In this document: positions 22,699-62,132 of the stretch, in pieces
Layout: each line of letters opens with the position of its first letter
Numbering within the stretch: the stretch's first letter is position 1
DNA from: an uncultured Actinomycetota bacterium
Lineage (GTDB): Bacteria > Actinomycetota > UBA4738 > HRBIN12
DNA: 64,000 nt
Direction of reading: 5' to 3'
Assembly: GCA_963724415.1 (NCBI GenBank)
Contig: CAVRUS010000011.1
Span: forward strand, 256,561 to 320,560
Translations under genes and position numbers: made by a program
Notes under the pieces: model-generated
The model's input: the letters and a program-made list of their open reading frames with translations, nothing else
The model's database searches: none
Told to the model about the DNA's origin: nothing

Positions 22699-22998
22699 AT
22701 GCCGAGCCCGCAGGGACCGGACCGCGGCTCGACCCCGGGCGAGGCGCATCGAGTGGTCCTGTACACGCGGCCCGGGTGTCATCTCTGCGACGTCGCTCGT
22801 GAGGTGGTCCTGTCCCTCCGGCAGCGGTTGGGGTTCGCCTTCGACGAGATCGATATCGAGGGCGACGATGAGCTCGAGCTGGAGTACGGGATCCGGATCC
22901 CCGTGATCGAGGTCGATGGCGAGGAGGAGTTCGAGGTCACCGTGGATCCGGGGCAGCTCGCCGCATTGCTTGCCGGCCCGGAGCCACGGCGCTCGTGA
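22699..22998 (+). CDS. Glutaredoxin-like thioredoxin-fold protein (DUF836-type, CxxC)
   Basis: YTRPGCHLCD CxxC motif within a small thioredoxin fold. Confidence 0.55.
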   Translation: MPSPQGPDRGSTPGEAHRVVLYTRPGCHLCDVAREVVLSLRQRLGFAFDEIDIEGDDELELEYGIRIPVIEVDGEEEFEVTVDPGQLAALLAGPEPRRS

Positions 22999-23061
22999 AC
23001 TCGTGAAACGGCCGGAGCATTTCGGCTAGGCTCCCTCCATGAGCCACTGTCCGGGCCGCTC

Positions 23062-23745
23062 GTGAGGGATCGGTCGATCCCCGAAGCCACGGTCGGGCGG
23101 CTGCCGCGCTACCTCCAGGCACTCGCGGGGATGGCTGCGGACGGGACCACGGTGGCGTCCTCGGAGGAGCTGGCCCTGGCCGCCGGGGTCACCTCGGCCA
23201 AGGTCCGGAAGGACCTCTCGCACCTCGGCTCCTACGGCACGCGCGGGGTCGGCTACGACATCGCGTACCTGATCCATCAGATCCGCCGGGAGCTCGGCCT
23301 CACGCAGGACTGGGGCATCGCGATCGCCGGGATCGGGAACCTCGGCCACGCCCTCGCGAACTACAAGGGGTTCGCCGACCGGGGCTTCCGCGTCTCCGCG
23401 CTGGTGGACGTCGACCCGGCCAAGGTCGGCGAGCGGGTCGGGGAGCTCGAGGTGGTGCACATCGACGACCTCCCCGCGCTCGTGGAGGACCGCGCGATCG
23501 CGATCGGCGTGATCGCGACACCGGCGACCGCCGTGCAGGACGTGGGCGATCGGATGGTCGCCGCAGGGATCCGCTCGATCCTCAACTTCGCGCCCGCTCC
23601 GCTCGTCGCCCCGCCCGGCGTCTCCGTCCGGTCGGTGGACCTGGCGGTCGAGCTCCAGATCCTGGCCTACTACGAGCAGCGGAAGGCGGCGCTCGCCGAC
23701 GTCCGGCGTCGAGGCGGGGCGGTGGCGCTCGCCCCGACGAGCTGA
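23062..23745 (+). CDS. rex: Redox-sensing transcriptional repressor Rex
   Basis: N-terminal winged helix (RLPRYLQAL) and a Rossmann GIGNLG NADH-binding motif. Confidence 0.85.
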   Translation: MRDRSIPEATVGRLPRYLQALAGMAADGTTVASSEELALAAGVTSAKVRKDLSHLGSYGTRGVGYDIAYLIHQIRRELGLTQDWGIAIAGIGNLGHALANYKGFADRGFRVSALVDVDPAKVGERVGELEVVHIDDLPALVEDRAIAIGVIATPATAVQDVGDRMVAAGIRSILNFAPAPLVAPPGVSVRSVDLAVELQILAYYEQRKAALADVRRRGGAVALAPTS

Positions 23746-23909: not shown

Positions 23910-24644
23910 TCATGCCGGTCCGTACCACGGCGGCGCCGCGCCGCCCGTGAGGAACTCTTTCCGCTTCTTCTCGGCCCTGTCCAGCAAGGGCAGATGGATC
24001 GCGAACAGGATCACCGATCCGACGAGGAACATGTAGGAGTACTTGGGGACGCTCCCTTCGTCGTGGTACAGCGACACGGTCCACAGCGGTCCTCCCTCGA
24101 GGAAGTGCGCGCGCGCGACCGCGAGCTGTGTGCCATCGGCATCCGCGAAGGAGATCGAGTCGACCGCGAAGTCGACGCCACTCACGGCCGTCGGGTCGGA
24201 CTCGGGGATCTCGAGCTCCACGTTGGCCTCTTCCGCGAGGAAGTCGCTCACGATCCCGGTCACGGATTGCACCTCGGCGGCATCCTCGCCGGGTGCGGGC
24301 TGCTCCCACGGCGCATCCGGGTAGGCCGCGAACTCCTCGTACCGGTCGCTGGTGGAATCGATCGATGCCAGGAGCGGGACCCAGGCGGGTTCCGCGCCGC
24401 GGGGGCCGAGGTTGACGGGCGTATCCGGACCCTGCGAGTAGAAACCGAACGCCCAGAGCGCCGAGAGCATGATCATCCAGCCCGAGAGCGAGACCATCAG
24501 GACCAGGTACCCCATCCATCGACCCAGGACCGCGGTCAGGAGCAGGTAGACGCTGCCCACGAACAGGGTGAGGCTCATCAGAACCACGCCGATGCCCTTG
24601 GCGAGGATGCCGCAATCGATGTTGAAGCCGAGACAGGTCTCCAT
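23910..24644 (-). CDS. Integral membrane protein (3 N-terminal TM helices plus one C-terminal), unknown function; in the cytochrome complex operon
   Basis: Internal ATG by index arithmetic, 1-nt overlap with the cyt c stop (METCLGFNIDCGILAKG...). Confidence 0.5.
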   Translation of the reverse strand: METCLGFNIDCGILAKGIGVVLMSLTLFVGSVYLLLTAVLGRWMGYLVLMVSLSGWMIMLSALWAFGFYSQGPDTPVNLGPRGAEPAWVPLLASIDSTSDRYEEFAAYPDAPWEQPAPGEDAAEVQSVTGIVSDFLAEEANVELEIPESDPTAVSGVDFAVDSISFADADGTQLAVARAHFLEGGPLWTVSLYHDEGSVPKYSYMFLVGSVILFAIHLPLLDRAEKKRKEFLTGGAAPPWYGPA

Positions 24645-25354
24645 CACGGATCCCTCGGGTTCGGGCCGCTCGGGTTCTCGAGCGCCGCCGCGGATGCTTC
24701 CTCGTTCAAGCAGACGTTCTGCTCGAAGGGCACGTTCTCGGACGAGAGCTCGACGAGATAGACGACGATGTCGTTGATCTGTTGGTCGTCGAGCGCGCCC
24801 TCGTACCGGATGCTCCAGGACGGCATGCCGTTCTCGATCCTGCCCTCCCGGATCACCTGGTAGATGTCCTCCGTCGAGTAGATCGCGGCGTGCCCGGTGT
24901 TCGGGCCCCCGCAGATGGTGGAGAGGTTCGGCGGGAACGCGAACCCGTCCCGCAGCGGGATGATGCCCCCGGTCAGCTCCGGCCCGTGGCACCGGACGCA
25001 CCCGACGCCGAGCTGGTTCTCCTCCGAGAACGGCAGGACGGCGCGCGCCCCGCGGTCGAGGGCGAGCTCCTTCAGCTCTTGCTCCTGGTTCAGGTTCGTC
25101 GACGGCTCGAAGATCCACGTGGCCGGGATCCAGATCACGAAGAACGCCAGCATCACGACGCTCCACCCCTGGAGCTTCTGGAGCAGCGGCGTCTCGAGCG
25201 CGGCATCCGAGGGACCCGGCCGGAGGGCCTCGGGGATGTCGGGCCCCGTCTCACGGGTCCGCTGCCGGAGCGCGAGGCCCGCGACCGCGGCGACGGCGAT
25301 CAGCCCGCCGACGATCAGGAGAACGACCCCTGCGGTGGTCGAGAGTGCGAGCAT
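24644..25354 (-). CDS. Membrane-anchored monoheme cytochrome c
   Basis: Internal ATG by index arithmetic; N-terminal TM helix; single CxxCH (GCVRCHG). Confidence 0.75.
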   Translation of the reverse strand: MLALSTTAGVVLLIVGGLIAVAAVAGLALRQRTRETGPDIPEALRPGPSDAALETPLLQKLQGWSVVMLAFFVIWIPATWIFEPSTNLNQEQELKELALDRGARAVLPFSEENQLGVGCVRCHGPELTGGIIPLRDGFAFPPNLSTICGGPNTGHAAIYSTEDIYQVIREGRIENGMPSWSIRYEGALDDQQINDIVVYLVELSSENVPFEQNVCLNEEASAAALENPSGPNPRDP

Positions 25355-25379
25355 CGTTCCCGTCGCCCCTATGCCTTCC

Positions 25380-26111
25380 TCATCCTGGCGCCACGCAGAA
25401 GGCGCCTTGCGGCGGCTGGTCGATCGTGTCGGTCCCTCGCGCGGGGCCGAGGACCACCTCGGACGTGTCGACCAGCACGCGCCCGCCGACGATCTCCATG
25501 TGGAACCGGTCCATGCCGCGAGGCGCCGGCCCGAGCTGGTACTCGCCCGCCGAGTTGTACTTCGAGCCGTGGCACGGGCACTCGAACCACTTCGACTGGC
25601 CGCAGAACGGGACGCGGCACCCCAGGTGCACGCACCGCTGGTAGAGCGGCATGATGCCATCACTCGTCACGCCCTCGGCCGCGTAGTCGGCGCCCCCATT
25701 CGGTGTGCCGTTGTACGGCACCACGTAGAAGCGGCCGGTCCCCACGTAGAACGGCTCGCCGGAGCTGACGGCGGCTTTGATCTCCGCGAGGTCGCCGGCA
25801 TCGATCAGGGCTCCGAACCCGCCCTTCAGGCTGGGCCACAGGAACGCGACCGAAGCGCCTCCGAACTGCGCGCCGAACACGAGGAGCGACGCGATCAGGG
25901 ACTTGCGGAAGAAGTCGCGGCGCGAGACCGCGGGGGGGCGGCTCGTGGGCGGAGGCAGCCCCGCGGCTTTCGCCTGCGACGCGGCGACGGCCTCCTGCTG
26001 CCGATTGTACGAACGGAGCGAGACGACGAAGAACGAGATCGCGAAGATCAAGACCGCGACCAGGGCCGCGATCGCGGCCACGAGCCCGGCGGATGCGGCG
26101 AGGGTGCTCAC
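25380..26111 (-). CDS. Rieske [2Fe-2S] iron-sulfur protein
   Basis: Rieske boxes CVHLGC and CPCHGS; internal Tat-like SRRDFF after an N-terminal TM helix; GTG 26111 forms a GTGA overlap with the upstream gene. Confidence 0.8.
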   Translation of the reverse strand: MSTLAASAGLVAAIAALVAVLIFAISFFVVSLRSYNRQQEAVAASQAKAAGLPPPTSRPPAVSRRDFFRKSLIASLLVFGAQFGGASVAFLWPSLKGGFGALIDAGDLAEIKAAVSSGEPFYVGTGRFYVVPYNGTPNGGADYAAEGVTSDGIMPLYQRCVHLGCRVPFCGQSKWFECPCHGSKYNSAGEYQLGPAPRGMDRFHMEIVGGRVLVDTSEVVLGPARGTDTIDQPPQGAFCVAPG

Positions 26112-26686
26112 AGGTCGAAGAACACCCCTTGCGCCCACGGCCAGACCCAGTTGTAGCCGGGGCCGCGGAAGAAGGAGCCGATGATCGTCAGCACGGCGCC
26201 GAACATGAACAGCACCGTGAACATCGTGAGCGCGATCTTCCGGTCACCGGGACGCGTGCTCGGGTTCCGATCGACGAAGGGGACGGCCGCCAGGCCGATC
26301 AAGATGAACGTCGGGATCGAGATCCCGGCCACCATCGGATGGAAGTAGCGGAGCAGCTCCTGGAGTCCGAGGAAGTACCAGGGAGCCTTCGAGGGGTTCG
26401 GCGTGAGGTTCGCGTTCGCCAGCTCGCGGAGCGGCGCGTTCAGGAACGTCGAGAACACCACGAGGCCGACGGAGAGCACGAACATCGCGACGAACTCTTC
26501 GAGCAGCAGGTGGGGCCACACGTTGACGCGGTCACCCTGCTCGCGCTCGACCCGCTGGATCCCCTCCGGCGGCACGAGCGCGAGGAGCCGGTGCTTCTCC
26601 GGCGCGCCCTTCTTGGGGGTCGGGATGTTCCCCGTCGGCAGCGGGGCCGTGCGCGTCGGAGCGCTCACGGGCGCCGCCGCGACCAT
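26108..26686 (-). CDS. Cytochrome b6-f subunit IV-like protein (C-terminal half of a split cytochrome b)
   Basis: PetD/QcrC-type motifs (NVWPHLLLEEF, PWYFLGLQELLRYF); start at internal ATG 26686 by index arithmetic. Confidence 0.75.
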   Translation of the reverse strand: MVAAAPVSAPTRTAPLPTGNIPTPKKGAPEKHRLLALVPPEGIQRVEREQGDRVNVWPHLLLEEFVAMFVLSVGLVVFSTFLNAPLRELANANLTPNPSKAPWYFLGLQELLRYFHPMVAGISIPTFILIGLAAVPFVDRNPSTRPGDRKIALTMFTVLFMFGAVLTIIGSFFRGPGYNWVWPWAQGVFFDL

Positions 26687-26952
26687 CGCGGCCTGAGCGG
26701 TGCTGCCGCCGGTGCTGCTCCCACAGCCGCGGGCGTCTGTGCCGGGGCACCGCCGTTGCCGTCTGTGGCAGCCGCGGCCGGAGCGGGTGCGGCAGCTGCT
26801 GCCTCCTCCTCGGGATGCGCGGCCTTGTAGGCGCGGACCGCCGCCGACCGGGCACGCCCCTCGGCGACGCGCTTGTCGGTGCCGGCGTCCAGCTGCTCCT
26901 TCAGGACGCGGTCGAAGACCTCCTGGTCGAGCGGGGTGTCCTCTCTCGCCAT
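26665..26952 (-). CDS. Hypothetical 95-aa ORF between the cytochrome b6 and subunit IV genes (Ala/Pro-rich tail); possibly a frameshifted N-terminal extension of subunit IV
   Basis: In a different frame from subunit IV and overlapping its start by 22 nt; the N-terminal 50 aa look protein-like, the rest is low-complexity. Confidence 0.2.
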   Translation of the reverse strand: MAREDTPLDQEVFDRVLKEQLDAGTDKRVAEGRARSAAVRAYKAAHPEEEAAAAAPAPAAAATDGNGGAPAQTPAAVGAAPAAAPLRPRWSRRRP

Positions 26953-26961
26953 CGCCGTCTC

Positions 26962-27732
26962 CTAGAGGGGTCCCGAGATCCCGCCGTCCTTGCGGATCCG
27001 CCAGAAGTGGACCGCCAGGAACAGCACCAATACGAACGGCAGCGCCAGCACGTGGAGGACGTACCAGCGGAGCAGCGTCTCCGGTCCGACGACGACGCCG
27101 CCGAGCAGCACGATGTTGAACTGCTTCGCGATGAACGGTGAGTACCCGGCGAGCGAGGTCCCGACGGTGACCGCCCAGATCGCGAGCTGGTCCCACGGCA
27201 GCAGGTACCCGGTGAACGACAGGCCGAGCGTGAGGAACAGCAGGACCACGCCGACGACCCAGTTGAACTCCCGCGGGGGCTTGTACGCGCCGGTGTAGAA
27301 GACCCGCGCCATGTGCAGCGTCACGCTGAAGACCATCAGGTGCGCACCCCAGCGATGGAGGTTGCGCACGAAGTCCCCGAGGAACACCGTCGTGCGGATC
27401 CCCTGCATGTCCGTGTACGCCTGCGCGCCGCCGATGTCGGCCATCGGCCGGTAGAAGAACATCAGGAAGATGCCGGTGATCGTGAGGAGGATGAACAGGA
27501 AGAAGGAGAGGCCCCCGAGGCAGAACGTGTAGGTCAGTTTCAGCCCGTGCCGTTTCACCTTCACCGGGTGGAGGTGGTACAGGACGTTGTTCATCGTCGC
27601 GAGGGCGCGATCGCGCGACGTGTCCTTGTAGCCCTTCCGGAAGATCGAGCCCGGCCGGAAGATCGACTTCCAGACCTCTGTCTCCCGGAGACGGTCGCCG
27701 AGCTCGCTCGGCGACGGGGGCTTCAACTTCAA
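26962..27732 (-). CDS. Cytochrome b6-like protein (N-terminal half of a split cytochrome b)
   Basis: TTG start after GAGAGGGGGAA; heme-ligand helices ([10 protein letters not shown]...FFYRP...HRWGAHLMV...). Confidence 0.8.
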
Positions 27733-27760
27733 CGCGTTCCCCCTCTCGCAGCCGGCGCGA

Positions 27761-28156
27761 TCATTCCTCCGCCGCCTGGGACGTCGGGACCTCGGCCATC
27801 GTGCGCCTGCCGCCGGAACCCTCCGGCAGCCGCGCATAGTACAGGGTGTCCGTCGGGCACCGGTCCACGCACACGGAGCACCGCGTGCAGGCGTTGTCGT
27901 CGACCACGAAGATCGCCGTCGAGTTGTGCACCTCGGCCCCCGACGCCGGTGTCTCGGCGCCCTCGACGATGTCCGGAGCCAGCATGTAGATGCAGTTCCA
28001 CGGGCAGACGTCCTCGCAGGCGCGGCACAGGATGCAGTTGTCGGGGTCCAGCATCAGGTGCTTCGGGGACTTCACGCCCTCCGCGAGCCACGCGGGGTCG
28101 ACGGCCTCCAGCGTGTAGTCCTCGTGGATGTCGACCTCGGTCTTGGTGAACGGCAT
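27761..28156 (-). CDS. 2[4Fe-4S] ferredoxin-domain protein
   Basis: Two CxxCxxCxxxCP clusters ([12 protein letters not shown] and [12 protein letters not shown]). Confidence 0.75.
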
Positions 28157-28168
28157 CTTCCCGGCCTC

Positions 28169-28609
28169 CTACCGGTACCCACCGGTGGGGCGAACGTCTC
28201 CGGACTGTCCGCGGAGCCTGCGGCGCCAGTTCTGCAGGACACCCGCGACGACGAGCACGATGACGACCGGCATGGTCGTGAGGCCCATCGCGATCGCGTC
28301 ACGCAGCATCAGGAGTCCCTCCTGGGAGAGCCACAGGAACGAGCCCTTCGAGAAGAAGGCGCCGCTCGTGTTGAACGGGTCACGCAGGAACGCCTCGAGG
28401 TCGGTCGGTCCCTGCCACCCGAGGATCTGCTCGGCGTAGTACATCCACCACGACGCGACCACCGCGCTCATGATCAGCAGGAAGAACAGGAGCGCCAGCG
28501 AGAACAGGACCGCGCTCGTCCACGACCACTCGAAGTCCCGCAGGAACGACTCCACATGGCGCTTGACGGTTCGGATCGGCGATCTGGTTGCGGTGTCGAC
28601 CTGGCTCAT
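28169..28609 (-). CDS. Small membrane protein (2 TM), first gene of the cytochrome complex operon
   Basis: Internal ATG 28609 by index arithmetic (MSQVDTATRS...); hydrophobic helices. Confidence 0.45.
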   Translation of the reverse strand: MSQVDTATRSPIRTVKRHVESFLRDFEWSWTSAVLFSLALLFFLLIMSAVVASWWMYYAEQILGWQGPTDLEAFLRDPFNTSGAFFSKGSFLWLSQEGLLMLRDAIAMGLTTMPVVIVLVVAGVLQNWRRRLRGQSGDVRPTGGYR

Positions 28610-28692
28610 GCGCTCGCTTGCTCCATGGGCGGGCGAATCATACAACCGGGCCTCGGAGGGCCTCGCGTCCCGGCTCGGCCCCCGCCTCCCAC

Positions 28693-28710
28693 TCGTGAAG
28701 GTTTTCACGA
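28693..28710. promoter_or_regulatory. Rex-type operator palindrome TCGTGAA-GGTT-TTCACGA in the divergent intergenic region between the b6f-like operon and ccdA
   Basis: Perfect inverted repeat matching the Rex operator consensus TTGTGAAnnnnTTCACAA; rex is encoded in this window. Confidence 0.6.
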
Positions 28711-28784
28711 GCAGGTCCACACTATGTCGCGCCCGGGGCTCAGACAACCCGGTGCGCGAGCACGGCGATGGGAAACTGAGCACG

Positions 28785-29567
28785 ATGCTCGGGGCACTGG
28801 TAGAGACGGGACTCTCGTCGTGGTGGGCGCCGGCCCTCGCGTTCGCGGCCGGTGTCGTGTCCTTCGCGAGCCCTTGCGTCTGGCCCCTGGTCCCGGGCTA
28901 CGTCTCGTTCGTGACCGGGAGCCGGGCGGCCGAAGGAGAGGGGCGGCGCCCACTCGTGCCGATCCTGCTGTTCATCCTCGGGTTCACGATCGTCTTCACC
29001 CTGCTGGGGGCGTTCGCCGGCACGTTCGTCCCGCTGTTCCGGGGTCCCTGGTTCCAGCGGGTGGCCGGGCTCTTCGTGCTCCTGCTCGGCCTCTTGATGA
29101 TCGGCTACGCGTTCCGGATGGGGTCGCCCGGCCTGTACGCGGAGCGGCGGCCGCTGCTCGAGCGTGTGCGCATCGGCGGGGCCGGCGCGCTCCCGCTCGG
29201 GGTCGCGTTCGCCGCCGGCTGGACCCCCTGCATCGGGCCGGTGCTCGCGGGGATCCTCGCGATCGCCGCGACCGGAGGTTCGATCAAGGGTGCCGCCCTC
29301 CTCGCCGTGTACTCGCTGGGCCTCGGCGTCCCGTTCCTCCTCGTGGGCCTGGGCGCCGACCGGCTCGTGGCGAGCCTCGGATGGATCCGGCGACACTACC
29401 GGGGGATCGCCGCTGTCTCGGGGGCGTTCCTGGTCGCGGTCGGCGTCCTGCTGATGACGGGACTGTTCACGGCAGTTCTTCGGCCCGCTCGCGCGGTTCG
29501 CGCCCGGGTTGTAGCGCGGGTGCCATGGACGGGTGCGGAGGGGCTCCCTAGCATCGGGGCGCGATGA
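28785..29567 (+). CDS. ccdA: Cytochrome c-type biogenesis protein CcdA (DsbD-like thiol-disulfide transporter)
   Basis: SPCVWPLVPGY motif and multi-TM profile; ATG 28785 by index arithmetic (alternative GTG 28752). Confidence 0.8.
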   Translation: MLGALVETGLSSWWAPALAFAAGVVSFASPCVWPLVPGYVSFVTGSRAAEGEGRRPLVPILLFILGFTIVFTLLGAFAGTFVPLFRGPWFQRVAGLFVLLLGLLMIGYAFRMGSPGLYAERRPLLERVRIGGAGALPLGVAFAAGWTPCIGPVLAGILAIAATGGSIKGAALLAVYSLGLGVPFLLVGLGADRLVASLGWIRRHYRGIAAVSGAFLVAVGVLLMTGLFTAVLRPARAVRARVVARVPWTGAEGLPSIGAR

Positions 29568-31108
29568 CGACCCCGTCCGGCCCCACGGTTCGCCAGTCGG
29601 TCGCCCTCGTCTGGCGCAACCTGCGCTCGATGCGCACGGCGTTGATCCTCCTCCTGATCCTCGCCGCGGCCTCGGTGATCGGGTCGCTCCTTCCCCAGAT
29701 CCCGAACTCGCCCGAGCGGGTGGGACGGTATCTCGACGACCACGGCGCGTGGGGGACCTTCCTCTTCCGAGCCGGCTTCCTCGACGTGTACGGGTCCTGG
29801 TGGTTCGTCTTGATCACGACCCTGCTGTTCGTCTCGCTCGCCGCGTGTCTGTTCCCGAGGACGCGCGCCCTCCTCCGCGCCCTGCGGCAGCGGCCGATCC
29901 ATGCGCGCGAGCTGGATGGGTTCCTCCACCACGCGGAGCTCCGGGTGGGAGCCACCCCCGACGAGGCCGCCGCAGGCGCCGCCCGCTACCTACGGCGGAA
30001 GCGGTTCCGTGTCTCCCGGCAGGGCGGCGCGGTGGCCGCGGAGAAGGGTGTGCTCCGTGAGGTCGGGAGTCTCCTGTTCCACGGCGCGTTCTTCCTCCTG
30101 CTCGTCGGCGTGATCGTGGGGAAGGGGACCGGGTTCACCGGTCGTGCCGTCGTCACGGAGGGCGAGACGTGGGTCGACGCGCGGGTCAACTATGCCGGCG
30201 AGATCCGCACCGGCCGCTACTTCGGGGGCGCGCACACCGGGATGGGGATCGAGCTCCTCGACTTCGACGACAGCTACCGCCGCAACGGGCTGCCGATCGA
30301 CTTCGTCTCCCGCGTCCGCTTCCTCGACCGAGACGGTCGGACAGCGGATCTCGAGGAGATCAGGGTGAACCACCCCGCGAGCCGGGACGGCCTCCGCATC
30401 TTCCAGGAGGGATTCGGCTGGGCGCCGGTGGTCACCGCCTCGCTCGACGGCACGCCGATGTGGTCCACACCGATCGACATGACGCGGGACCAGGCGCCGG
30501 AGGGCGTCCCGGGGACCGCGATGCCATGGCGAGGAGCGATCAAGCTGACCGCCCCCGATCCTGACGTGATGATCACGCTCGAGCTCTGGTCGGACTACCG
30601 GGCGTTCGTCAACCTCCAGCTCACCGGCGAACCCACGCCGATGCTGGTGCAGTTCGACCCGTTCATCCGCTACTCCGTCTACGTGGGCCGGATCCTCGAC
30701 CCGGCGCGGTCCTCGGTCGACCCGACCGGGATGCGGCGTGTGGCGCGCGGAGACCTCCACGCGGCCGGCACCGCGCACGCCGACGTGGCGGGCGTGGGGG
30801 ACCTCACGCTGTCCTTCCCGGAGCTCCGGCAGTACTCGGTCCTGTTGATCAGCCGCGACGTCGGCATCCCGGCGGTGCTCGCCGCCGCTATCCTCGTTCT
30901 CGTGGGACTCATCCCCGCGCTGTACGTCTCCCGGCGGAAGGTCTGGGTCCGAGCGGAGGCCGCCCCCGGCGGCACGCTCGTGAAGATCGGCGGCTTCGCC
31001 CTGCAGCGGAAGGAGTCCTTCGACGAGGAGTTCGATCGGATCGTGCGAGCCGTCGGCGGGCTCGAAGGAGCCGCGCCGCACACGGAGGAACGGGTGGGGA
31101 CGTCGTGA
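29564..31108 (+). CDS. resB: Cytochrome c biogenesis protein ResB (Ccs1)
   Basis: 514 aa with ResB architecture; ATGA overlap with ccdA. Confidence 0.85.
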   Translation: MTTPSGPTVRQSVALVWRNLRSMRTALILLLILAAASVIGSLLPQIPNSPERVGRYLDDHGAWGTFLFRAGFLDVYGSWWFVLITTLLFVSLAACLFPRTRALLRALRQRPIHARELDGFLHHAELRVGATPDEAAAGAARYLRRKRFRVSRQGGAVAAEKGVLREVGSLLFHGAFFLLLVGVIVGKGTGFTGRAVVTEGETWVDARVNYAGEIRTGRYFGGAHTGMGIELLDFDDSYRRNGLPIDFVSRVRFLDRDGRTADLEEIRVNHPASRDGLRIFQEGFGWAPVVTASLDGTPMWSTPIDMTRDQAPEGVPGTAMPWRGAIKLTAPDPDVMITLELWSDYRAFVNLQLTGEPTPMLVQFDPFIRYSVYVGRILDPARSSVDPTGMRRVARGDLHAAGTAHADVAGVGDLTLSFPELRQYSVLLISRDVGIPAVLAAAILVLVGLIPALYVSRRKVWVRAEAAPGGTLVKIGGFALQRKESFDEEFDRIVRAVGGLEGAAPHTEERVGTS

Positions 31109-32055
31109 GCGCTGAGCAGATCTCGAACACCGCGTTCGACGTCACCCTGTGGCTCTACCTGGGGGCGATGGTCCTGTCCTTCGCCTACCTCGCGGCCCGG
31201 CGCGAGGTGCTCTGGCGGCTCGCCAGGGTGGTCGCGATCGCCGGCGTGACGGCGAACCTCGTGTCGATCGTCGCGCGGGGCGTGGCGGCGCAGCGCGTGC
31301 CGTGGGGCAACATGTTCGAGTACTCGACGGTGCTCGCGTTCCTCGTGGTCCTCGGGACCCTCGTGTTCGTCGAGGGCATCGCGAAGATCAAGACCCTCAC
31401 CGGTTTCTCGCTGATGTTCGCGGTCTTCACCCTCGCGATCGCGGCGATCTTCTTCCCGGTGGAGCCGAGCCCGCTGCAGCCGGCGCTGAACTCGTACTGG
31501 ATCAAGATCCACGTCGTGGCCGCGATCACCGGGTCGTCGCTCTTCGCGATCGGCGGGATCGCGACGATCCTGTTCCTGATCAAGGACCGGTCGGAGCGGC
31601 GGGCGCTCGCGGGTCTCCGCGAGCGCCAGCCGGCGCCGATCATGGGCGGCGCGATCGAGGTCGATGCCCCCCACGACCTCCTCCCGGATCCCGAGGGATC
31701 CGGGAGTGCGACCCCCGAGGCCGGGCGCGGCGGCGTCCTGCCGTCCGCCGCCGCCCTGGACCGCGTGGCCTACCGGGTGATCGCGTTCGCGTTCCCGATC
31801 TGGACGTTCGCCGTGATCGCCGGCGCGATCTGGGCGCAGGACGCGTGGGGCCGCTACTGGGGATGGGACCCGAAGGAGACCTGGTCGTTCGTCACGTGGA
31901 CGATCTTCGCCGGCTATCTCCACGCTCGATCGACGGCGGGGTGGAAGGGTCGTCGCGCGGCGGTGATCGCCGTCGTGGGGTTCGTCTCGCTGCTGATCAC
32001 GTACTACGCGGTGAACCTATGGATCGTCGGACTGCATTCCTACAAGCTCGGATGA
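31105..32055 (+). CDS. resC: Cytochrome c biogenesis protein ResC/CcsA
   Basis: Tryptophan-rich WGRYWGWDPKETW motif; GTG start overlapping the resB stop. Confidence 0.85.
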   Translation: MSAEQISNTAFDVTLWLYLGAMVLSFAYLAARREVLWRLARVVAIAGVTANLVSIVARGVAAQRVPWGNMFEYSTVLAFLVVLGTLVFVEGIAKIKTLTGFSLMFAVFTLAIAAIFFPVEPSPLQPALNSYWIKIHVVAAITGSSLFAIGGIATILFLIKDRSERRALAGLRERQPAPIMGGAIEVDAPHDLLPDPEGSGSATPEAGRGGVLPSAAALDRVAYRVIAFAFPIWTFAVIAGAIWAQDAWGRYWGWDPKETWSFVTWTIFAGYLHARSTAGWKGRRAAVIAVVGFVSLLITYYAVNLWIVGLHSYKLG

Positions 32056-32144
32056 GACGTTCGGTCGCGCCGAACCCCGGTGATACAGTGCGCGCGGGCT
32101 CGCTGAGCCCGTCCTCAGGAGAGCTCCGGGAGACCGAAGGAACC

Positions 32145-41701: not shown

Positions 41702-41730
41702 GCGTGTCATGACCCCGTGCGATAGGCTGC

Positions 41731-41748
41731 TTGTGAAAGGTTTCACGA
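41731..41748. promoter_or_regulatory. Rex-type operator TTGTGAA-AGGT-TTCACGA upstream of the geranylgeranyl reductase-nuo operon
   Basis: Near-perfect match to the Rex consensus TTGTGAAnnnnTTCACAA; shares a 16-mer with the site at 28693. Confidence 0.6.
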
Positions 41749-41780: not shown

Positions 41781-43028
41781 GTGCCCGAGCGGATCGAGAC
41801 CGACGTGTTGATCGTCGGCGCCGGCCCAGCTGGATCGGCGGCGGCATACCACCTCGCCCGTCACGGCATCGACGTCCTCGCCGTCGACAAAGCGACGTTC
41901 CCGAGGGAGAAGGTCTGCGGCGACGGCCTGACGCCCCGGAGCGTCGGCGCCGTCGAGCGGATGGGCATCGACACCTCGGATCCGGGCTTCGAACGCGTGA
42001 TCGGGCTCCGCGTCTATTCGAAGGACGTCACGATGGACCTGCCGTGGCCGGAGCTCCAGTCCTGGCCGAACTACGGCCTCGTGATGCCACGCCTCGGGTT
42101 CGACCATCTCCTGCTCGAGCGCGCGAAGAAGGCGGGTGCCCGCGTGCTCGAGGCGACCGATGCCCGCGGGCCGATGATCCGTGACGGCTGGGTCGTGGGG
42201 GCCGAGACCGTGCCCGCCGGTGAAGGGGACCGCGAGCCGACCGAGATCCACGCTCGGTTCACGATCGCCGCCGACGGGGCCGCGAGCCGCTTCGGTGCTC
42301 CCGCCGGCGTCCGCCGCGACGACACCCGACCGCTCGGGATCGCGGCCCGCCGGTACTACCGCGCGCCGAACCTCGGCGGGCCCTGGTTCGAGTCGTGGCT
42401 CGACCTGTGGGAAGGCGACATGCTCCTGCCCGGCTACGGGTGGCTCTTCCCGATGGCCGACGGCCGCGTCAACCTCGGCGCCGGCCTCCTCAGCACGTTC
42501 CGGAACTTCAAGGACATCTCGGCTGCGCGCCTCTTCGCGGCCTTCGCCACGATGCTCCCCGAGGACCGCGGGATCTCCGAGGAGACCGCCGACGGCCGCA
42601 TGCTGTCCGGGCCGCTCCCGATGAGCATGAACCGCGCCCCGCAGGCCGTCCCCGGGATGCTCGTCGTGGGCGACGCCGCCGGCGCGGTGAATCCGATGAA
42701 CGGCGAGGGGATCGCGTACGCGATCGAGACGGGGGAGATGGCCGCAGAGCTCCTGCACGAAGCGCTCGTCAAGGACCGACCCGGCCTCGCGATGGTCTAT
42801 CCGCAAGCTCTGCGCGAGCGGTACGGACGCTATTTCCACCTCGGCCGTGGCTTCGCCAAGCTCGTCGGCAAGCCCGAGATCATGGGGCCGGCCACGAAGT
42901 ACCTCCTGCCCAACCCGAAGGTCATGGGGTTCGCGATGCGGATGATGGCGAACCTGACCGACGGCAGGGACGGCGACGCGCAGGACAAGCTCTTCTACAT
43001 CCTCGAGAGGTTGGCGCGCGCGTCGTGA
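41781..43028 (+). CDS. Geranylgeranyl reductase-family FAD-dependent oxidoreductase (MenJ-like menaquinone/polyprenyl reductase candidate)
   Basis: GxGxxG FAD motif (VGAGPAGSAAAY) and GDAAG; translationally coupled (GTGA) to nuoA. Confidence 0.75.
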   Translation: MPERIETDVLIVGAGPAGSAAAYHLARHGIDVLAVDKATFPREKVCGDGLTPRSVGAVERMGIDTSDPGFERVIGLRVYSKDVTMDLPWPELQSWPNYGLVMPRLGFDHLLLERAKKAGARVLEATDARGPMIRDGWVVGAETVPAGEGDREPTEIHARFTIAADGAASRFGAPAGVRRDDTRPLGIAARRYYRAPNLGGPWFESWLDLWEGDMLLPGYGWLFPMADGRVNLGAGLLSTFRNFKDISAARLFAAFATMLPEDRGISEETADGRMLSGPLPMSMNRAPQAVPGMLVVGDAAGAVNPMNGEGIAYAIETGEMAAELLHEALVKDRPGLAMVYPQALRERYGRYFHLGRGFAKLVGKPEIMGPATKYLLPNPKVMGFAMRMMANLTDGRDGDAQDKLFYILERLARAS

Positions 43029-43531
43029 CCGTAGGATTGCCGTCCGTGGGTGAGAGCGGCTCCCTCGCCTCGCTGGTCGCGGCCGGACTGAGCGACTACC
43101 TCCCCATCCTCCTGATGGCCGTGCTGGCCGTGGTCTTCGCGGTGGCCTCGCTGGGGGTCTCGGCGCTGCTGCGGCCGCATCGCCCGAACCGGCCGAAGCT
43201 GTCCGCGTACGAGAGCGGCAACGATCCGGTCCGGCTGCCCGGCGGCGAGCGGTTCAGCGTGAAGTTCTACGTCGTCGCGATGCTGTTCATCATCTTCGAC
43301 ATCGAAACGATCTTCCTGTTCCCGTGGGCCGTGTCCTTCCGGCAGCTCGGGCTGTTCGGGTTGATCGAGATGGCGGTCTTCATCGCGCTCGTGTTCGTGG
43401 CCTACGTCTACATCTGGAAGAAGGGCGGCTTCGACTGGTCCGCCGAGCCTCCCGACCTCCGGGACGAGGAGGATCCGCGGCAGGTCGCCGCCGCGGAACT
43501 GCAGGAAGAGGGTGCCGTCGGTGCCCGTTGA
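43025..43531 (+). CDS. nuoA: NADH-quinone oxidoreductase subunit A
   Basis: In-frame GTG overlapping the upstream stop; NuoA core (YESGNDP...[15 protein letters not shown]); start could be slightly downstream. Confidence 0.8.
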
Positions 43532-44039
43532 GCGCGTCGAAGGACACGTCACCGGGCGGGGTCCCGAGGAGGTCGAGGAGGAGGTCCGCAAGGGCGTACT
43601 GCTGACCTCGCTCGACCGGGCGGTGAGCTGGGCGCGGAAGCAATCGATGTGGCCGGCGACGTTCGGGCTCGCCTGCTGCGCGATCGAGATGATGTCCGCG
43701 GGCGCCGGGCGGTACGACCTCTCCCGATGGGGGATGGAGCTGTTCCGGGCCTCGCCGCGCCAGGCGGATCTGATGATCGTGGCCGGGCGCGTCTCCCAGA
43801 AGATGGCGCCGGTCCTGCGCCGGGTCTACGACCAGATGCCCGAGCCCAAGTGGGTGATCTCGATGGGCGTGTGCGCATCCGCCGGCGGGATGTTCACGAA
43901 CTACGCGATCGTCCAAGGCGTGGACACGATCGTGCCGGTCGACATCTACGTGCCGGGCTGTCCGCCGAAGCCGGAGATGCTGATGTTCGGCATCCTGAAG
44001 CTCCAGGAGAAGGTGCGGACGACGGGGACGATCCGGTGA
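43512..44039 (+). CDS. nuoB: NADH-quinone oxidoreductase subunit B
   Basis: [10 protein letters not shown] and the CPPKPE N2-cluster cysteines. Confidence 0.9.
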
Positions 44040-44048
44040 AGGCGCCAG

Positions 44049-44549
44049 ATGCGGGCTGATGAGCTCGCGGCGCGCGTCGGCGAGCGATTCACCGACGTCC
44101 TGCTCGCACGTGACGAGGTCACCGTCGTCGTCGACCGAGACGACCTCGTCGATGCGCTCGTGCGACTCCGGGACCAACCCGACCTGTCGTTCGGGTTCCT
44201 CTCGAGCCTGACCGCGACCGATCACCTCGACCGGGAGCCCCGCTTCTGGGTGGTCTACGAGCTCCGGTCGGTGGAGCATGCTCACCGGATCCGCCTGAAG
44301 GTGGGGCTGCCCGCGGAGGATCCGCACATCCCCTCGGTCACGGCGCTCTTCCCGACGGCCGACTGGCACGAACGTGAGGCGTGGGACCTGTTCGGTGTCG
44401 TCTTCGACGGCCATCCCGACCTCGTTCGGATCCTGCTCCCCGACGATTGGGAGGGACATCCGCTCCGCAAGGACGAGGAGCTCGGGGGTGTCGAGACCCG
44501 GTACCACGGCGCGTTCATCCCACCCGTCGACGAACGGACGATGCCGTGA
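44049..44549 (+). CDS. nuoC: NADH-quinone oxidoreductase subunit C
   Basis: [19 protein letters not shown]...GHPLRKD motif. Confidence 0.9.
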
Positions 44550-45850
44550 TGGCGAGTGGGCACGAGATGTCGCATGCGCGCGACGGGCTCTCGCGCACGC
44601 CGGAGATCCGCGACGACGTCACCGGCGAGGTCCGCCAGGAGACGATGATCATCAACATGGGGCCGCAGCACCCCTCCACCCACGGGGTGCTCCGGTTGCT
44701 CCTCGAGCTCGACGGAGAGACGGTGATCCGGTGCCGGCCGATCGTCGGCTACCTCCACACCGGCATCGAGAAGAACACCGAGTACCGCACCTGGGTCCAG
44801 GGCGTGGCGTACGTGACCCGCGCCGACTATCTCTCCCCGTTCTTCAACGAGCTCGCGTACTGCCTGTCCGTCGAGCGCCTGCTCGGGATCGAGGCGCCGC
44901 CGCGGGCGCAGATCCTCCGGGTGCTCCTCTGCGAGCTGAATCGCATCGCCTCGCACCTCGTCTGGGTGGCCACCGGCGGGATGGAGCTGGGCGCCGTCTC
45001 CGTGATGCTCTATGGGTTCCGTGAGCGGGAGCTGATCCTCGACATCTTCGAGGCCGTCACCGGCCTTCGGATGAACCACGCCTACATCCGGCCCGGCGGC
45101 GTGATCATGGATCTGCCCGAGGACGGACCCCGCCGGATCGCGCGGTTCCTCGACGCGATGCCGGCGAGGATCGACGACTACGAACGGCTCCTGAACGACA
45201 ACCCGATCTGGCTCGAGCGGAACGTCGGCGTGGGCGTCCTGCAGGCGGACGAGGCGCTCGCGTGGGGCGTGACCGGGCCCCTCCTCCGGGCGGCCGGCGT
45301 CGCCGTCGACCTCCGCAAGGACGAGCCGTACAGCGGCTACGAGACCTACGACTTCGAGGTTCCGGTACGGACCGAGGCCGACTCCTACGCTCGGTACCTG
45401 GTCCGCATCGCGGAGATGCGGGAATCGCTCCGGATCGCCGAGCAGGCCCTCGCTCGCCTGGAGGAGCCGGGCCCGGTGATGGTCGAGGACCCGAAGGTGG
45501 GCTGGCCGGTGAAGCTCTCGGTCGGGCCCGACGGCATCGGCAACGACGAGGCGTATCTCCACCACATCATGGAGGAGTCGATGGAGGCACTGATCCATCA
45601 CTTCAAGATGGTGACCCAAGGGGTGCGTGTGCCCGCGGGGGAGGTCTACACGGCGGTCGAGTCGCCGCGGGGTGAGCTCGGCTTCTACGTCGTCTCCGCG
45701 GACGAGCACCGCCCGTACCGCGTCAAGATCCGCGACCCCTCGTTCGTGAACCTCCAGGCGGTCCCGACGATGGTGGAGGGTGGTCTGATCGCGGACGCGA
45801 TCGCGGTGATCGCCTCGCTCGACCCGGTGATGGGGGGCGTCGATCGCTGA
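44549..45850 (+). CDS. nuoD: NADH-quinone oxidoreductase subunit D
   Basis: Internal ATG by index arithmetic overlapping the nuoC stop; NuoD (49 kDa) motifs [13 protein letters not shown] and VESPRGELG. Confidence 0.9.
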
Positions 45851-46421
45851 TGACGGTCTTCGAGGGCACGCGGCTGGACGAGGCGAAGGAGATCATCGGC
45901 CGGTACCCGGAGGGACGCGAGCGCTCCGCGATCATGCCCCTGCTCTACCTCGCGCAGTCGATCGAGGGTCATGTCACGCGCGAGGGTCTGCGGGAGATCG
46001 CGGTGCTCCTCGGCCGGACGACGGCCGAGGTGGAGGCCGTCGCGACGTTCTACACGATGTTCCGACTCCGCCCGACCGGCACCCACGTGGTGAGCGTGTG
46101 CACGAACCTCGCCTGCATGCTCCGGGGCGGGCGCGAGGTGTACGAGGCGGCGCACGAGGCAGCCGGGATGCGCCACGGCCAGGAGCTGTCGGAGGACGGG
46201 CTGTTCACCCTGCACGAGGAGGAGTGCCTGGGCGTGTGCGACTTCGCGCCCGTCGCGCAGGTGAACTTCGCGAACCACGATCAGGTGACGCCCGAGCGGA
46301 TGGCGGAGCTGATCGCGGGGCTGCGCGACGGCTCCGTCCCGGAGCCGTCGCGCGGCCCCGCGATGGAGAGCTTCAAGGCCGCGTCGCGCGTGCTCGCCGG
46401 GTTGGAGGAGGTGCCGGCGTC

Positions 46422-46425
<4 letters not shown>
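45850..46425 (+). CDS. nuoE: NADH-quinone oxidoreductase subunit E
   Basis: [2Fe-2S] cysteines (VCTNLACM...CLGVCDFAP). Confidence 0.9.
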
Positions 46426-47717
<1,292 letters not shown>

Positions 47718-47781
47718 GCTGGCATCTCCGGGGGGCCGGGGGGGCCTACAAGCGAGGCCCCGAGCGCGTGGCGAGGCGGAC

Positions 47782-51845: not shown

Positions 51846-51847
51846 GG

Positions 51848-52404
<557 letters not shown>

Positions 52405-52408
<4 letters not shown>

Positions 52409-57692: not shown

Positions 57693-57699
57693 GGGCGCG

Positions 57700-62131: not shown

Positions 62132-62132
62132 C

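What the first reader, a model, noticed from the sequence alone, without database searches (positions are those of the whole stretch)
28693..28710. Rex operator copies place the respiratory supercluster in a Rex regulon encoded in the same window
Two strong palindromes match the Rex consensus TTGTGAAnnnnTTCACAA: TCGTGAAGGTTTTCACGA at 28693 and TTGTGAAAGGTTTCACGA at 41731. They share a 16-mer GTGAA(A)GGTTTCACGAGC. The first lies in the divergent promoter region between the b6f-like operon and ccdA-resBC-caa3. The second is upstream of the geranylgeranyl-reductase-nuoA-N operon. A weaker half-site abuts nuoA2 (58747), and tandem GTGAA half-sites sit upstream of rex itself (22993-23009). rex is at 23062. 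This suggests NADH/NAD+-responsive co-regulation of cytochrome c maturation, the terminal oxidase, the b6f-like complex and both complex I clusters.
Basis: partly seen in the sequence, partly recalled or inferred. Interest (0 to 1): 0.6.

Follow-up and report, generated by a model that had tools for sequence, protein, structure and literature searches.

The report
Rex repressor sites at respiratory-gene promoters
Three conserved 18-bp binding sites for the NADH-sensing repressor Rex, whose gene lies in the same window, sit on the promoters of two complex I gene clusters and a b6f-like cytochrome operon in an uncultured soil actinobacterium; this is a real but ordinary extension of a well-known regulatory system.

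Summary
The window has exactly three matches (up to 3 mismatches) to TTGTGAA-N4-TTCACAA, at 28693, 41731 and 58745. All three are intergenic; 0.12 matches are expected by chance.

The gene at 23062-23745 is a bona fide Rex. It passes the NCBIfam equivalog cut-off and keeps the DNA-reading and NADH-binding residues.

All three sites recur at orthologous positions in syntenic genome and metagenome loci of the same uncultured Actinomycetota lineage. The half-sites are fixed and the 4-nt spacer is free.

Each site lies 2-9 nt downstream of a conserved TAnnnT -10 element, so each should cover a transcription start. This is classic repressor geometry.

- Sites 2 and 3 control ggr-nuoA-N and the second nuo cluster.
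- Site 1 belongs to a leftward promoter reading into the b6f-like operon, not to ccdA.
- ccdA-resBC and ctaC (caa3) have their own conserved -10 elements and no operator.
- Upstream of rex only tandem left half-sites remain, with no right arm. More distant relatives carry a full operator there.

Verdict: a new member of the known Rex/ROP regulon (Streptomyces Rex already controls nuoA-N). Nothing here has been tested experimentally.

The parts
23062..23745 (+). rex, the redox-sensing (NADH/NAD+) transcriptional repressor
   Evidence: Pfam PF06971 + PF02629. NCBIfam Rex equivalog NF003992 scores 331 bits against a cut-off of 226. Full-length match to Thermus and Thermotoga Rex structures, E=2e-46.
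22992..23007 (+). They probably form the -35 region of the rex promoter and are a remnant of an autoregulatory operator.
   Evidence: Sequence. Conserved as CTCGTGnACTTGTGAA in the close clade. Full TTGTGCAC-N3-TTCACAA operators in relatives with 68-70% identical Rex. No PWM hit.
23027..23032 (+). Putative -10 (TAGGCT) of the rex promoter
   Evidence: Conserved TAGGCT/TAGAAT at this position in about 70 loci. Inferred; no transcription-start data.
28693..28710 (-). Rex operator 1 (TCGTGAAGGTTTTCACGA), read as +3..+20 of a leftward promoter
   Evidence: Present at the orthologous position in 16 further loci (8 genome, 8 metagenome), with a half lost in an N gap in L005, and absent in L003, L004 and L114.
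28719..28724 (-). Putative -10 TAGTGT of the distal leftward promoter P2, 8 nt upstream of operator 1
   Evidence: TAnnnT lies 7-9 nt upstream on the minus strand in 11 of 16 distinct site-1 contexts. Alignment.
28742..28747 (-). Putative -35 TTGTCT of P2, with a 17-nt spacer
   Evidence: Conserved CAAC block 19-22 nt to the right of the -10 block. Inferred.
28637..28642 (-). Putative -10 TATGAT of the proximal promoter P1 of the b6f-like operon, with no operator
   Evidence: TATGAT/TATAAT is conserved in most of the related loci examined.
23910..28609 (-). b6f-like operon: unknown 146-aa protein, 2x[4Fe-4S] ferredoxin, cytochrome b6, subunit-IV-like protein, Rieske protein, cytochrome c, unknown 245-aa protein. 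Proposed target of operator 1.
   Evidence: Pfam and NCBIfam. Synteny is conserved.
41723..41728 (+). Putative -10 TAGGCT, 2 nt upstream of operator 2
   Evidence: TAGGCT/TAGCCT/TACAGT lies 0-6 nt upstream of the operator in 12 of the 13 operator-2 contexts in the window and nine related loci.
41731..41748 (+). Rex operator 2 (TTGTGAAAGGTTTCACGA), covering the predicted transcription start
   Evidence: Present in all 9 related loci that reach this position; doubled in L002, L008 and L012.
41781..58707 (+). Proposed target of operator 2: MenJ-like geranylgeranyl reductase, nuoA-N (14 subunits) and a polyprenyl synthase
   Evidence: Pfam and NCBIfam.
58733..58738 (+). Putative -10 TAGGAT, 6 nt upstream of operator 3
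   Evidence: TAGGAT/TAGAAT lies 6-9 nt upstream in all orthologs examined.
58745..58762 (+). Rex operator 3 (TCGGGAAGACTTTCACAA). It is asymmetric: the left half has GGG instead of GTG.
   Evidence: Orthologs read T[CT]G[GA]GAA-N4-TTCACAA with a free spacer in 7 of 9 loci.
58765..64000 (+). Proposed target of operator 3: second nuo cluster (A, B, C, H, I, J, K, L...; no D/E/F/G). It runs off the window.
   Evidence: Pfam and called genes of the orthologous loci.
28785..32055 (+). ccdA-resB-resC (system II cytochrome c maturation). Adjacent to operator 1, but probably not its direct target.
   Evidence: Pfam. Its own -10 (GAAACT at 28772-28777 here, TAGACT in relatives) lies 7-10 nt before the start codon.
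32081..32089 (+). Conserved extended -10 (TGATACAGT) of ctaC. There is no Rex site, so caa3 has its own promoter.

Best explanation
The three 18-bp palindromes are operators (ROP sites) of the Rex repressor encoded at 23062-23745.

Proposed mechanism. When the NADH/NAD+ ratio is low, dimeric Rex binds each operator. Each operator begins 2-8 nt after a TAnnnT -10 element and therefore covers the transcription start, blocking initiation or promoter escape. When NADH rises (electron-acceptor limitation or excess reductant), NADH-bound Rex leaves the DNA.

Three units would then be derepressed:
(i) a MenJ-like reductase-nuoA-N operon, from operator 2;
(ii) the second, D/E/F/G-less nuo cluster, from the weaker asymmetric operator 3;
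(iii) a distal leftward promoter reading into the b6f-like Rieske/cytochrome b operon, from operator 1.

ccdA-resBC and the caa3 genes use their own operator-less promoters. rex itself has lost the canonical autoregulatory palindrome.

Shown here: the sites, their rarity, their conservation, their fixed position relative to conserved -10-like hexamers, and the integrity of Rex.

Inferred: Rex binding, the NADH response, the transcription starts, and the direction of the effect.
For: Rarity. There are 3 hits against 0.12 expected, all intergenic. In 767 kb of related loci there are 49 hits with up to 2 mismatches against about 0.2 in shuffles. Every one lies at one of four intergenic positions.

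Footprinting. In loci with 67-92% identical COX1 and conserved synteny, sites 1 and 2 recur with invariant T[TC]GTGAA / TTCAC[AG]A arms and unconstrained spacers. Site 3 recurs in 7 of 9 NuoA2-anchored loci.

Unbiased core search. GTGA-N6-TCAC gives 34 distinct 18-mers. Twenty-one carry A7/T12 and T1/A18 (the Rex-specific extension). The three non-Rex-type hits in the window lie inside called genes.

Geometry. TAnnnT lies 0-9 nt upstream of 32 of 38 operators that are not upstream of rex, always on the strand of the proposed target. This compares with the footprint at -3..+25 at S. avermitilis cydA1 (PMC5355995).

Protein. Rex passes the NCBIfam equivalog cut-off. It keeps 10 of 12 DNA-contact residues of T. 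maritima Rex, including Arg49/Lys50 (base reading) and Arg61/Gly62. It also keeps the GIGNLG motif, Asp116, Lys121, Tyr101 and Asp193 (with PMC8836258).

The deviant position 4 of site 3 is not base-contacted. The crystallised T. maritima operator itself reads TTGAGAA.

Precedent. Streptomyces Rex binds TTGTGAA-N4-TTCACAA at nuoA1-N1, cydA1, atpI and rex.

Linkage. rex stays syntenic with the b6f-like operon. In L168 rex lies directly beside the operator-ggr-pps-nuoA2 cluster.
Against: - There is no binding, transcription-start or expression data. The organism is uncultured.
- Only loci, not whole genomes, could be scanned, so genome-wide enrichment and the rest of the regulon are unknown.
- The core GTGA-N6-TCAC is shared with CRP/GlxR-type sites.
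- Site 1 is absent in L003, L004 and L114 although the flanking promoter blocks remain. Its assignment to the leftward promoter rests on hexamer conservation: 11 of 16 contexts, with L007, L008, L010, L016 and L121 lacking a TAnnnT there.
- The generic sigma-70 scan found no promoter in the site-1 region.
- Site 3 has a non-consensus left half.
- Canonical autoregulation, typical of Streptomyces Rex, is missing in the window.
Confidence: 0.75

Rival explanations
1. The sites are Rex operators, but site 1 works. It would repress the rightward ccdA-resBC(-caa3) transcription unit, or both divergent units at once.
For: The operator lies in a 175-bp divergent region. If CACTAT (28720-28725) is read as a plus-strand -10, the operator spans about -39..-22. 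That matches the footprints at S. avermitilis rex, nuoA1 and atpI. Building more c-type cytochromes would parallel Rex control of hemACD in Streptomyces.
Against: In the plus-strand reading the hexamer lacks the T1 seen in the other putative -10 hexamers of this lineage. No conserved TAnnnT lies downstream of the operator on the plus strand. The minus-strand reading gives TAGTGT, with a TTG 17 nt upstream, and the same -10/operator module as sites 2 and 3. ccdA has its own conserved TAGACT 7-10 nt before the start codon. ctaC has its own conserved extended -10.
Confidence: 0.2
2. The palindromes are bound by a CRP/FNR-family regulator (GlxR-like, consensus TGTGA-N6-TCACA) rather than by Rex.
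For: The core GTGA-N6-TCAC is common to both motifs. In Corynebacterium glutamicum GlxR binds the ctaCF, ctaE-qcrCAB and ctaD promoters (PMC7026483; motif in PMC7999487).
Against: In 21 of 21 conserved distinct sites the Rex-specific positions A7/T12 and T1/A18 are invariant. The first T of TGTGA is C in about 40% of half-sites. No CRP-family gene was detected among the window genes scanned, whereas rex is syntenic with the targets. The operator before rex in distant relatives is the same sequence type as the footprinted S. avermitilis rex ROP, TTGTGCACGCGTTCACAA.
Confidence: 0.07
3. The palindromes are chance or non-regulatory sequence, for example remnants of duplication, with no role in transcription.
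For: Sites 1 and 2 share TTTCACGAGC. Sites 2 and 3 sit before paralogous nuoA genes, so some similarity could be inherited by duplication. Site 1 is dispensable in three relatives.
Against: There are 0.12 hits expected against 3 observed. The arms are invariant while spacers and flanks diverge across loci with 60-90% protein identity. There are no hits with up to 2 mismatches outside four intergenic positions in 767 kb.
Confidence: 0.02

Closest known systems
Rex/ROP regulon of Streptomyces coelicolor and S. avermitilis (Brekasis & Paget 2003, cited from my own knowledge; Liu et al. 2017, PMC5355995)
   Same: Orthologous Rex (NCBIfam equivalog). The same 18-bp operator, TTGTGAA-N4-TTCACAA. The nuoA-N operon is a direct target. 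Operators overlap core promoters. An accessory half-site next to a full ROP occurs in both (cydA1 there; rex promoters of distant relatives here).
   Different: Here rex is linked to a glutaredoxin-like gene and a b6f-like operon, not to hemACD. The window's rex promoter lacks a full ROP. The proposed targets include a Rieske/cytochrome b6-type operon and a second, NuoDEFG-less nuo cluster. The operators lie just downstream of the -10 rather than over the -35. No cyd, atp or hem genes are in the window, so they could not be compared.
Structurally characterised Rex-DNA complexes (Thermus Rex 3IKT; Thermotoga maritima Rex 7WB3, PMC8836258)
   Same: Full-length homology, E=2e-46 and 6e-43. The base-reading Arg/Lys pair, the Gly-rich wing, GxGxxG and the Tyr/Asp NADH switch are conserved. 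The crystallised T. maritima operator has TTGAGAA in one half, like operator 3 and its orthologs.
   Different: Identity is visibly moderate in the alignments (no figure was computed). Two phosphate or water-mediated contact residues differ (Lys43 becomes Thr, Gln46 becomes Lys). No structure or binding data exist for this protein.
GlxR/CRP control of cytochrome bc1-aa3 genes in Corynebacterium glutamicum
   Same: A palindrome with the GTGA-N6-TCAC core at promoters of respiratory-chain genes in an actinobacterium.
   Different: A different protein family and signal (cAMP). It activates those genes (own knowledge). Its motif lacks the fixed A7/T12 and T1/A18 seen here.

Membership tests
Rex family repressor (protein at 23062-23745) | N-terminal winged-helix DNA-binding domain plus C-terminal Rossmann NAD(H)-binding domain | tested here: met
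   PF06971 (res. 6-53) and PF02629 (res. 82-178). Full-length alignment to Rex structures.
Rex family repressor (protein at 23062-23745) | Scores above the curated equivalog cut-off for Rex | tested here: met
   NF003992 scores 331.4 bits against a cut-off of 226. NF003993 scores 241 against 217.
Rex family repressor (protein at 23062-23745) | Conserved DNA-reading residues (T. maritima Arg48, Lys49, Arg60, Gly61, Tyr64 and others) | tested here: met
   10 of 12 contact residues are identical: Arg13, Ser34, Glu35, Arg49, Lys50, Ser53, Gly59, Arg61, Gly62, Tyr65. Lys43 becomes Thr and Gln46 becomes Lys. From the alignment and the residue list in PMC8836258.
Rex family repressor (protein at 23062-23745) | NAD(H) site and switch residues (GxGxxG, Asp115, Lys120, Tyr100', Asp191 of T. 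maritima Rex) | tested here: met
   GIGNLG, Asp116, Lys121, Tyr101 and Asp193 align.
Rex family repressor (protein at 23062-23745) | DNA binding is released by NADH | not testable with these tools
   Needs EMSA or SPR with purified protein, with and without NADH and NAD+.
Rex operator (ROP) sites | 18-bp inverted repeat matching TTGTGAA-N4-TTCACAA | tested here: met
   Sites 1, 2 and 3 have 2, 1 and 2 mismatches. PWM scores are 29.4, 32.2 and 23.4 bits. The site-1 and site-2 mismatches are at the T/C-tolerant positions 2 and 17. Site 3 also deviates at position 4.
Rex operator (ROP) sites | Located in promoter regions, overlapping core promoter elements or the transcription start | tested here: inconclusive
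   All three sites are intergenic and lie 2-8 nt after conserved TAnnnT hexamers. No transcription start has been mapped, and the generic sigma-70 scan found nothing.
Rex operator (ROP) sites | Conserved upstream of orthologous genes in related genomes that encode Rex | tested here: met
   Site 1 is present in 16 related loci, absent in 3, and half-lost in an N gap in 1. Site 2 is present in 9 of 9. Site 3 is present in 7 of 9.
Rex operator (ROP) sites | Autoregulatory ROP at the rex promoter (as in Streptomyces) | tested here: not met
   The window has only tandem left half-sites, with 6 mismatches to the 18-mer and no PWM hit. A full ROP lies 6 nt before TAGAAT in relatives with 68-70% identical Rex. 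This feature is typical of Rex but does not define it.
Rex operator (ROP) sites | Bound by Rex in vitro or in vivo | not testable with these tools
   Needs EMSA, footprinting or ChIP.
CRP/FNR (GlxR-type) binding site | TGTGA-N6-TCACA palindrome with variable inner flanks | tested here: inconclusive
   The core is present. But the inner A7/T12 and outer T1/A18 positions are invariant, and the first T is often C. That fits Rex better.
CRP/FNR (GlxR-type) binding site | A CRP/FNR-family regulator encoded in the genome | tested here: not met
   No cNMP-binding or Crp-type HTH domain was found in the window genes scanned. The rest of the genome is not available.

The most novel reading that the evidence does not exclude
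In this uncultured soil Actinomycetota lineage the Rex regulon may have been rewired. The close clade would have lost canonical autoregulation. New targets would be a b6f-like Rieske/cytochrome b complex with a ferredoxin subunit and a NuoDEFG-less second complex I. The latter is controlled through a conserved asymmetric operator (T[CT]G[GA]GAA-N4-TTCACAA). Its presumably lower affinity would give a graded order of derepression as NADH rises: nuo2 first, then the b6f-like operon, then nuo1.
Probability: 0.3. Interest if true: 0.45.

Novelty: new member of a known kind. Interest (0 to 1): 0.3.

Why it matters
The result gives a concrete, testable regulatory map for the respiratory chain of an uncultured soil actinobacterial lineage. 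It says which modules respond to the NADH/NAD+ ratio: both complex I clusters and the b6f-like complex. It also says which probably do not: cytochrome c maturation and the caa3 oxidase.

It extends the known Rex target range beyond nuo, cyd, atp and hem to a Rieske/cytochrome b6-type operon.

It shows a conserved, deliberately imperfect operator, which hints at tuned affinities.

Conceptually it is an expected use of a well-studied repressor, so the gain is incremental.

Tried and rejected
1. Small upstream ORF. An ORF starting at the conserved ATG in 'cacactATG' (28724) was considered. It ends in frame at the TAG of TAGACT in L002/L003 and at TGA in L001. In the window it has no in-frame stop, and the ATG is missing in L004 and L016. 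The conservation is better explained by promoter hexamers.

2. Plus-strand reading of that block as a -10 for ccdA. Kept only as a rival.

3. Generic sigma-70/terminator scan of 28550-28850. It found nothing. Its E. coli-type criteria do not suit this 70% G+C lineage.

4. Rfam and tRNA scans of the window. No matches, so the leaders contain no known RNA element.

5. Lineages in which the b6f-like operon and ccdA are separated, which could show which gene the operator follows. None were found among the loci held.

6. Exact-sequence look-up of the window's Rex to find the source contig. Not on record.

7. The comparative-genomics paper on Rex regulons (Ravcheev et al. 2012) could not be read by the DOI or the PMC id tried. 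Full-text searches for Rex control of cytochrome c biogenesis or of cytochrome c oxidase returned nothing. 'Not previously reported' therefore applies only to the library searched.

8. Shine-Dalgarno or start-site purine preference as the reason for the GGG/GAG in operator 3. The spacing does not fit; left unexplained.

Full report
OBSERVATION. TCGTGAAGGTTTTCACGA is at 28693-28710, TTGTGAAAGGTTTCACGA at 41731-41748 and TCGGGAAGACTTTCACAA at 58745-58762. They are the only matches with up to three mismatches to TTGTGAANNNNTTCACAA in the 64-kb window. Dinucleotide-preserving shuffles give 0.12 on average, and none of 100 reach three. A symmetrised PWM built from orthologous sites scores them 29.4, 32.2 and 23.4 bits. 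The next best position scores 8.1 bits and lies inside a gene. The window is 70% G+C, so an A/T-rich 14-base specification is rare.

CONTEXT. I called genes by third-position G+C and named them with Pfam and NCBIfam. The map is as follows.
- A glutaredoxin-like gene (22753-22998), then rex (23062-23745).
- A leftward operon (28609 down to 23910). It encodes an unknown 146-aa protein, a 2x[4Fe-4S] ferredoxin, cytochrome b6, a subunit-IV-like protein, a Rieske protein, a cytochrome c and an unknown 245-aa protein.
- Rightward: ccdA-resB-resC, the caa3 genes with ctaG, a cupredoxin and a redoxin.
- Leftward: ctaB/ctaA.
- Rightward: a polyprenyl synthase and a PPOX-class protein; operator 2; a MenJ-like geranylgeranyl reductase and a complete 14-subunit nuoA-N; a second polyprenyl synthase; operator 3; and a second nuo cluster containing A, B, C, H, I, J, K, L... 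but no D/E/F/G.

The closest genomes are uncultured Actinomycetota MAGs. COX1 identity is 92% for L001 and 67-76% for L002-L016. Acidimicrobiia follow at about 60%.

THE REGULATOR. The 227-aa protein has the Rex architecture, PF06971 plus PF02629. It exceeds the NCBIfam Rex equivalog cut-off, 331 bits against 226. It aligns end to end with the Thermus and Thermotoga Rex structures, E=2e-46 and 6e-43. I mapped the contact list of the T. maritima ternary complex (PMC8836258) onto that alignment. Ten of twelve DNA-contact residues are identical. These include the base-reading Arg49/Lys50 and the minor-groove Arg61/Gly62. The GxGxxG motif (GIGNLG), Asp116, Lys121, Tyr101 and Asp193 of the NAD(H) site and switch are all present. 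Nothing suggests a degenerate or re-purposed Rex.

PHYLOGENETIC FOOTPRINTING. Eighty COX1-anchored genome loci with 10-kb flanks and eighty Rex-anchored metagenome loci were annotated by tblastn with the window's proteins. In L001-L016 the whole gene order from rex to nuoD is conserved.

Every hit with up to 3 mismatches in L001-L016 falls in one of two intergenic regions.
- Between the 146-aa gene and ccdA (site 1). It is present in L001, 2, 6, 7, 8, 10, 15 and 16, and again in the metagenome loci L083, 90, 92, 95, 103, 107, 113 and 121. Half is lost in an N gap in L005. It is absent in L003, L004 and L114.
- Upstream of the reductase-nuoA operon (site 2). It is present in all nine loci that reach it. 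In L002, L008 and L012 it is duplicated 33-35 bp apart, each copy with its own -10-like hexamer.

The arms T[TC]GTGAA / TTCAC[AG]A never vary, while the four spacer bases and the flanks do. In L015 the upstream genes differ but the site stays with the reductase gene.

Over 767 kb of clade loci there are 49 hits with up to 2 mismatches, against about 0.2 in shuffles. All are at site 1, site 2, site 3 or upstream of rex.

SITE 3. I searched for NuoA2 homologues and fetched nine encoding loci. Seven carry T[CT]G[GA]GAA-N4-TTCACAA. It lies 6-9 nt after TAGGAT/TAGAAT and, in all but one (L165), 2 nt before the annotated nuoA2 start codon; spacers differ (GACT, AACG, ACCA, TGCT, ACCT). Two loci (L164, L168) are degenerate.

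So the element is a complete operator whose left arm consistently has G or A instead of T at position 4. In the T. maritima complex the base-specific contacts go to the G at position 3 and the G/A at positions 5/6. The minor-groove contacts go to pyrimidine O2 atoms at positions 1-2. The crystallised operator itself reads TTGAGAA. A purine at position 4 and T/C at position 2 are therefore compatible with Rex binding, probably at lower affinity. That last step is inference.

Similar T[TC]GGGAA-N4-TTCACA[AT] sites follow TAnnnT hexamers near cta genes in some Acidimicrobiia.

UPSTREAM OF REX. It ends 20 nt before a conserved TAGGCT (23027-23032). The close clade (Rex at least 81% identical) conserves CTCGTGnACTTGTGAA at the same place but has no right arm. 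Relatives with 68-70% identical Rex have CTTGTGCC followed by a full TTGTGCAC-N3-TTCACAA, exactly 6 nt before TAGAAT.

That is the geometry and nearly the sequence of the footprinted S. avermitilis rex operator: TTGTGCACGCGTTCACAA, at -39..-17 and encompassing the -35. I read the window's repeat as the -35 region of the rex promoter and a remnant of an ancestral autoregulatory operator. S. avermitilis Rex protects adjacent half-sites only weakly. Autoregulation here is therefore weak at best.

WHICH PROMOTERS. Putative -10 hexamers in this lineage are TAnnnT: TAGGCT, TAGGAT, TAGAAT, TAGACT, TACAGT, TATGAT.

A strand-aware count shows a TAnnnT 0-9 nt upstream of 32 of 38 operators that are not upstream of rex. 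Chance for one side is about 4%, which is my own estimate from base composition. For the sites before the reductase and nuoA2 genes it is on the plus strand. For site 1 it is on the minus strand (TAGTGT at 28724-28719, 8 nt before the operator) in 11 of 16 distinct contexts, and never on the plus side. A conserved TTG lies 17 nt further upstream on the same strand (TTGTCT, 28747-28742).

No TAnnnT follows site 1 on either strand within 20 nt. The operator therefore does not sit over the -35 of a rightward promoter with a lineage-typical -10.

Site 1 thus has the same -10/operator module as sites 2 and 3, and it points leftward into the b6f-like operon. That operon also has a proximal, operator-less TATGAT/TATAAT (28642-28637).

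ccdA has its own -10 7-10 nt before its start codon (TAGACT in most relatives, GAAACT here), suggesting a leaderless transcript. ctaC has a conserved extended -10, TGATACAGT at 32081-32089. Neither is accompanied by an operator. All transcription starts are inferred. The generic sigma-70 scan found nothing in the site-1 region.

RIVALS. CRP/GlxR-type regulators recognise TGTGA-N6-TCACA and bind cta/qcr promoters in Corynebacterium. The core is the same, so I repeated the search with only GTGA-N6-TCAC. Of 34 distinct 18-mers, 21 have A7/T12 and T1/A18 together. The three non-Rex-type hits in the window lie inside called genes. Position 2 is C in about 40% of half-sites. No CRP-family gene was found among the window genes scanned, while rex is syntenic with the targets. 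In L168 rex lies directly next to the operator-reductase-synthase-nuoA2 cluster. I give the CRP reading about 7%.

COMPARISON AND NOVELTY. Rex repression of nuoA-N through this 18-bp operator is established in Streptomyces, together with cydABCD, atp, rex-hemACD, ndh2 and others. The present case is a new member of that kind in an uncultured lineage.

Four things differ:
- a Rieske/cytochrome b6-type operon as a likely target;
- a second, NuoDEFG-less nuo cluster under a conserved asymmetric operator;
- operators placed over the start site rather than the -35;
- loss of the canonical rex operator in the close clade.

I found no report of Rex control of cytochrome c maturation or of a bc/b6f complex in the searchable library. 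The key comparative paper could not be read by the identifiers tried.

LIMITS. Everything about binding, NADH response, transcription starts and direction of regulation is inference from sequence conservation and from homology to characterised Rex systems. Only loci, not genomes, could be scanned.

Noticed in passing
window 32058-33249: ctaC (COX2) is split by a frameshift near 32640. The N-terminal membrane part is in one frame and the cupredoxin plus cytochrome c part is in ORF 32638-33249. The gene is a single intact ORF in L001 and L002. This is either an indel error in the assembly or a pseudogene.
   Followed up: partly
window 35484-35825; 38490-40350; 53004-56183: Three further odd gene structures. 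cox3 matches only positions 188-255 of the COX3 profile. ctaA is split, and its C-terminal part is fused to ctaB. NuoL and NuoM lie in one 1059-aa ORF. These could be more indel errors or real fusions.
   Followed up: no
window 58765-64000 (and L161, L165-L169): The second nuo cluster has A, B, C, H, I, J, K, L... with no NuoD, E, F or G between C and H. Lacking NuoD is unusual, because NuoD forms the quinone site together with NuoB.
   Followed up: partly
window 23910-28609 (- strand): The b6f-like operon includes a 2x[4Fe-4S] ferredoxin and two conserved proteins (146 aa and 245 aa) with no Pfam or NCBIfam match. Its cytochrome b scores 285 bits on the NCBIfam ExtP (selenite/tellurite reduction operon) equivalog, just under the 290 cut-off.
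   Followed up: no
window 28772-28784; L002-L008, L015, L016: A conserved -10 (TAGACT in most relatives, GAAACT in the window) lies 7-10 nt before the ccdA start codon. This suggests a leaderless ccdA mRNA.
   Followed up: partly
L002 18468/18502; L008 18870/18905; L012 8605/8638: Upstream of the reductase-nuoA operon, some relatives carry two complete -10 plus operator modules in tandem, 33-35 bp apart.
   Followed up: partly
L168 1-3400 (GCA_040754475.1): In this MAG the order is rex, PPOX-class gene, operator, reductase, polyprenyl synthase, nuoA2, with no nuo1 cluster in between. In the window's lineage the 14-gene nuo1 cluster therefore sits between genes that are contiguous elsewhere.
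   Followed up: no
L032 8568; L033 8581; L046 8592; L047 5279: Some Acidimicrobiia carry T[TC]GGGAA-N4-TTCACA[AT] at or just after TAnnnT-like hexamers upstream of genes next to ctaC or a second cox1. This is the same GGG variant as operator 3.
   Followed up: partly
window 21337-22667 (- strand): An ECF sigma factor and an RskA-type anti-sigma factor are transcribed divergently from the glutaredoxin-like gene and rex.
   Followed up: no
window 58724-58740: GGATCC-tgcta-GGATCC, a possible 6-bp-stem hairpin, overlaps the -10 TAGGAT before operator 3. The left arm is not conserved in L161-L163, so it is probably incidental.
   Followed up: partly
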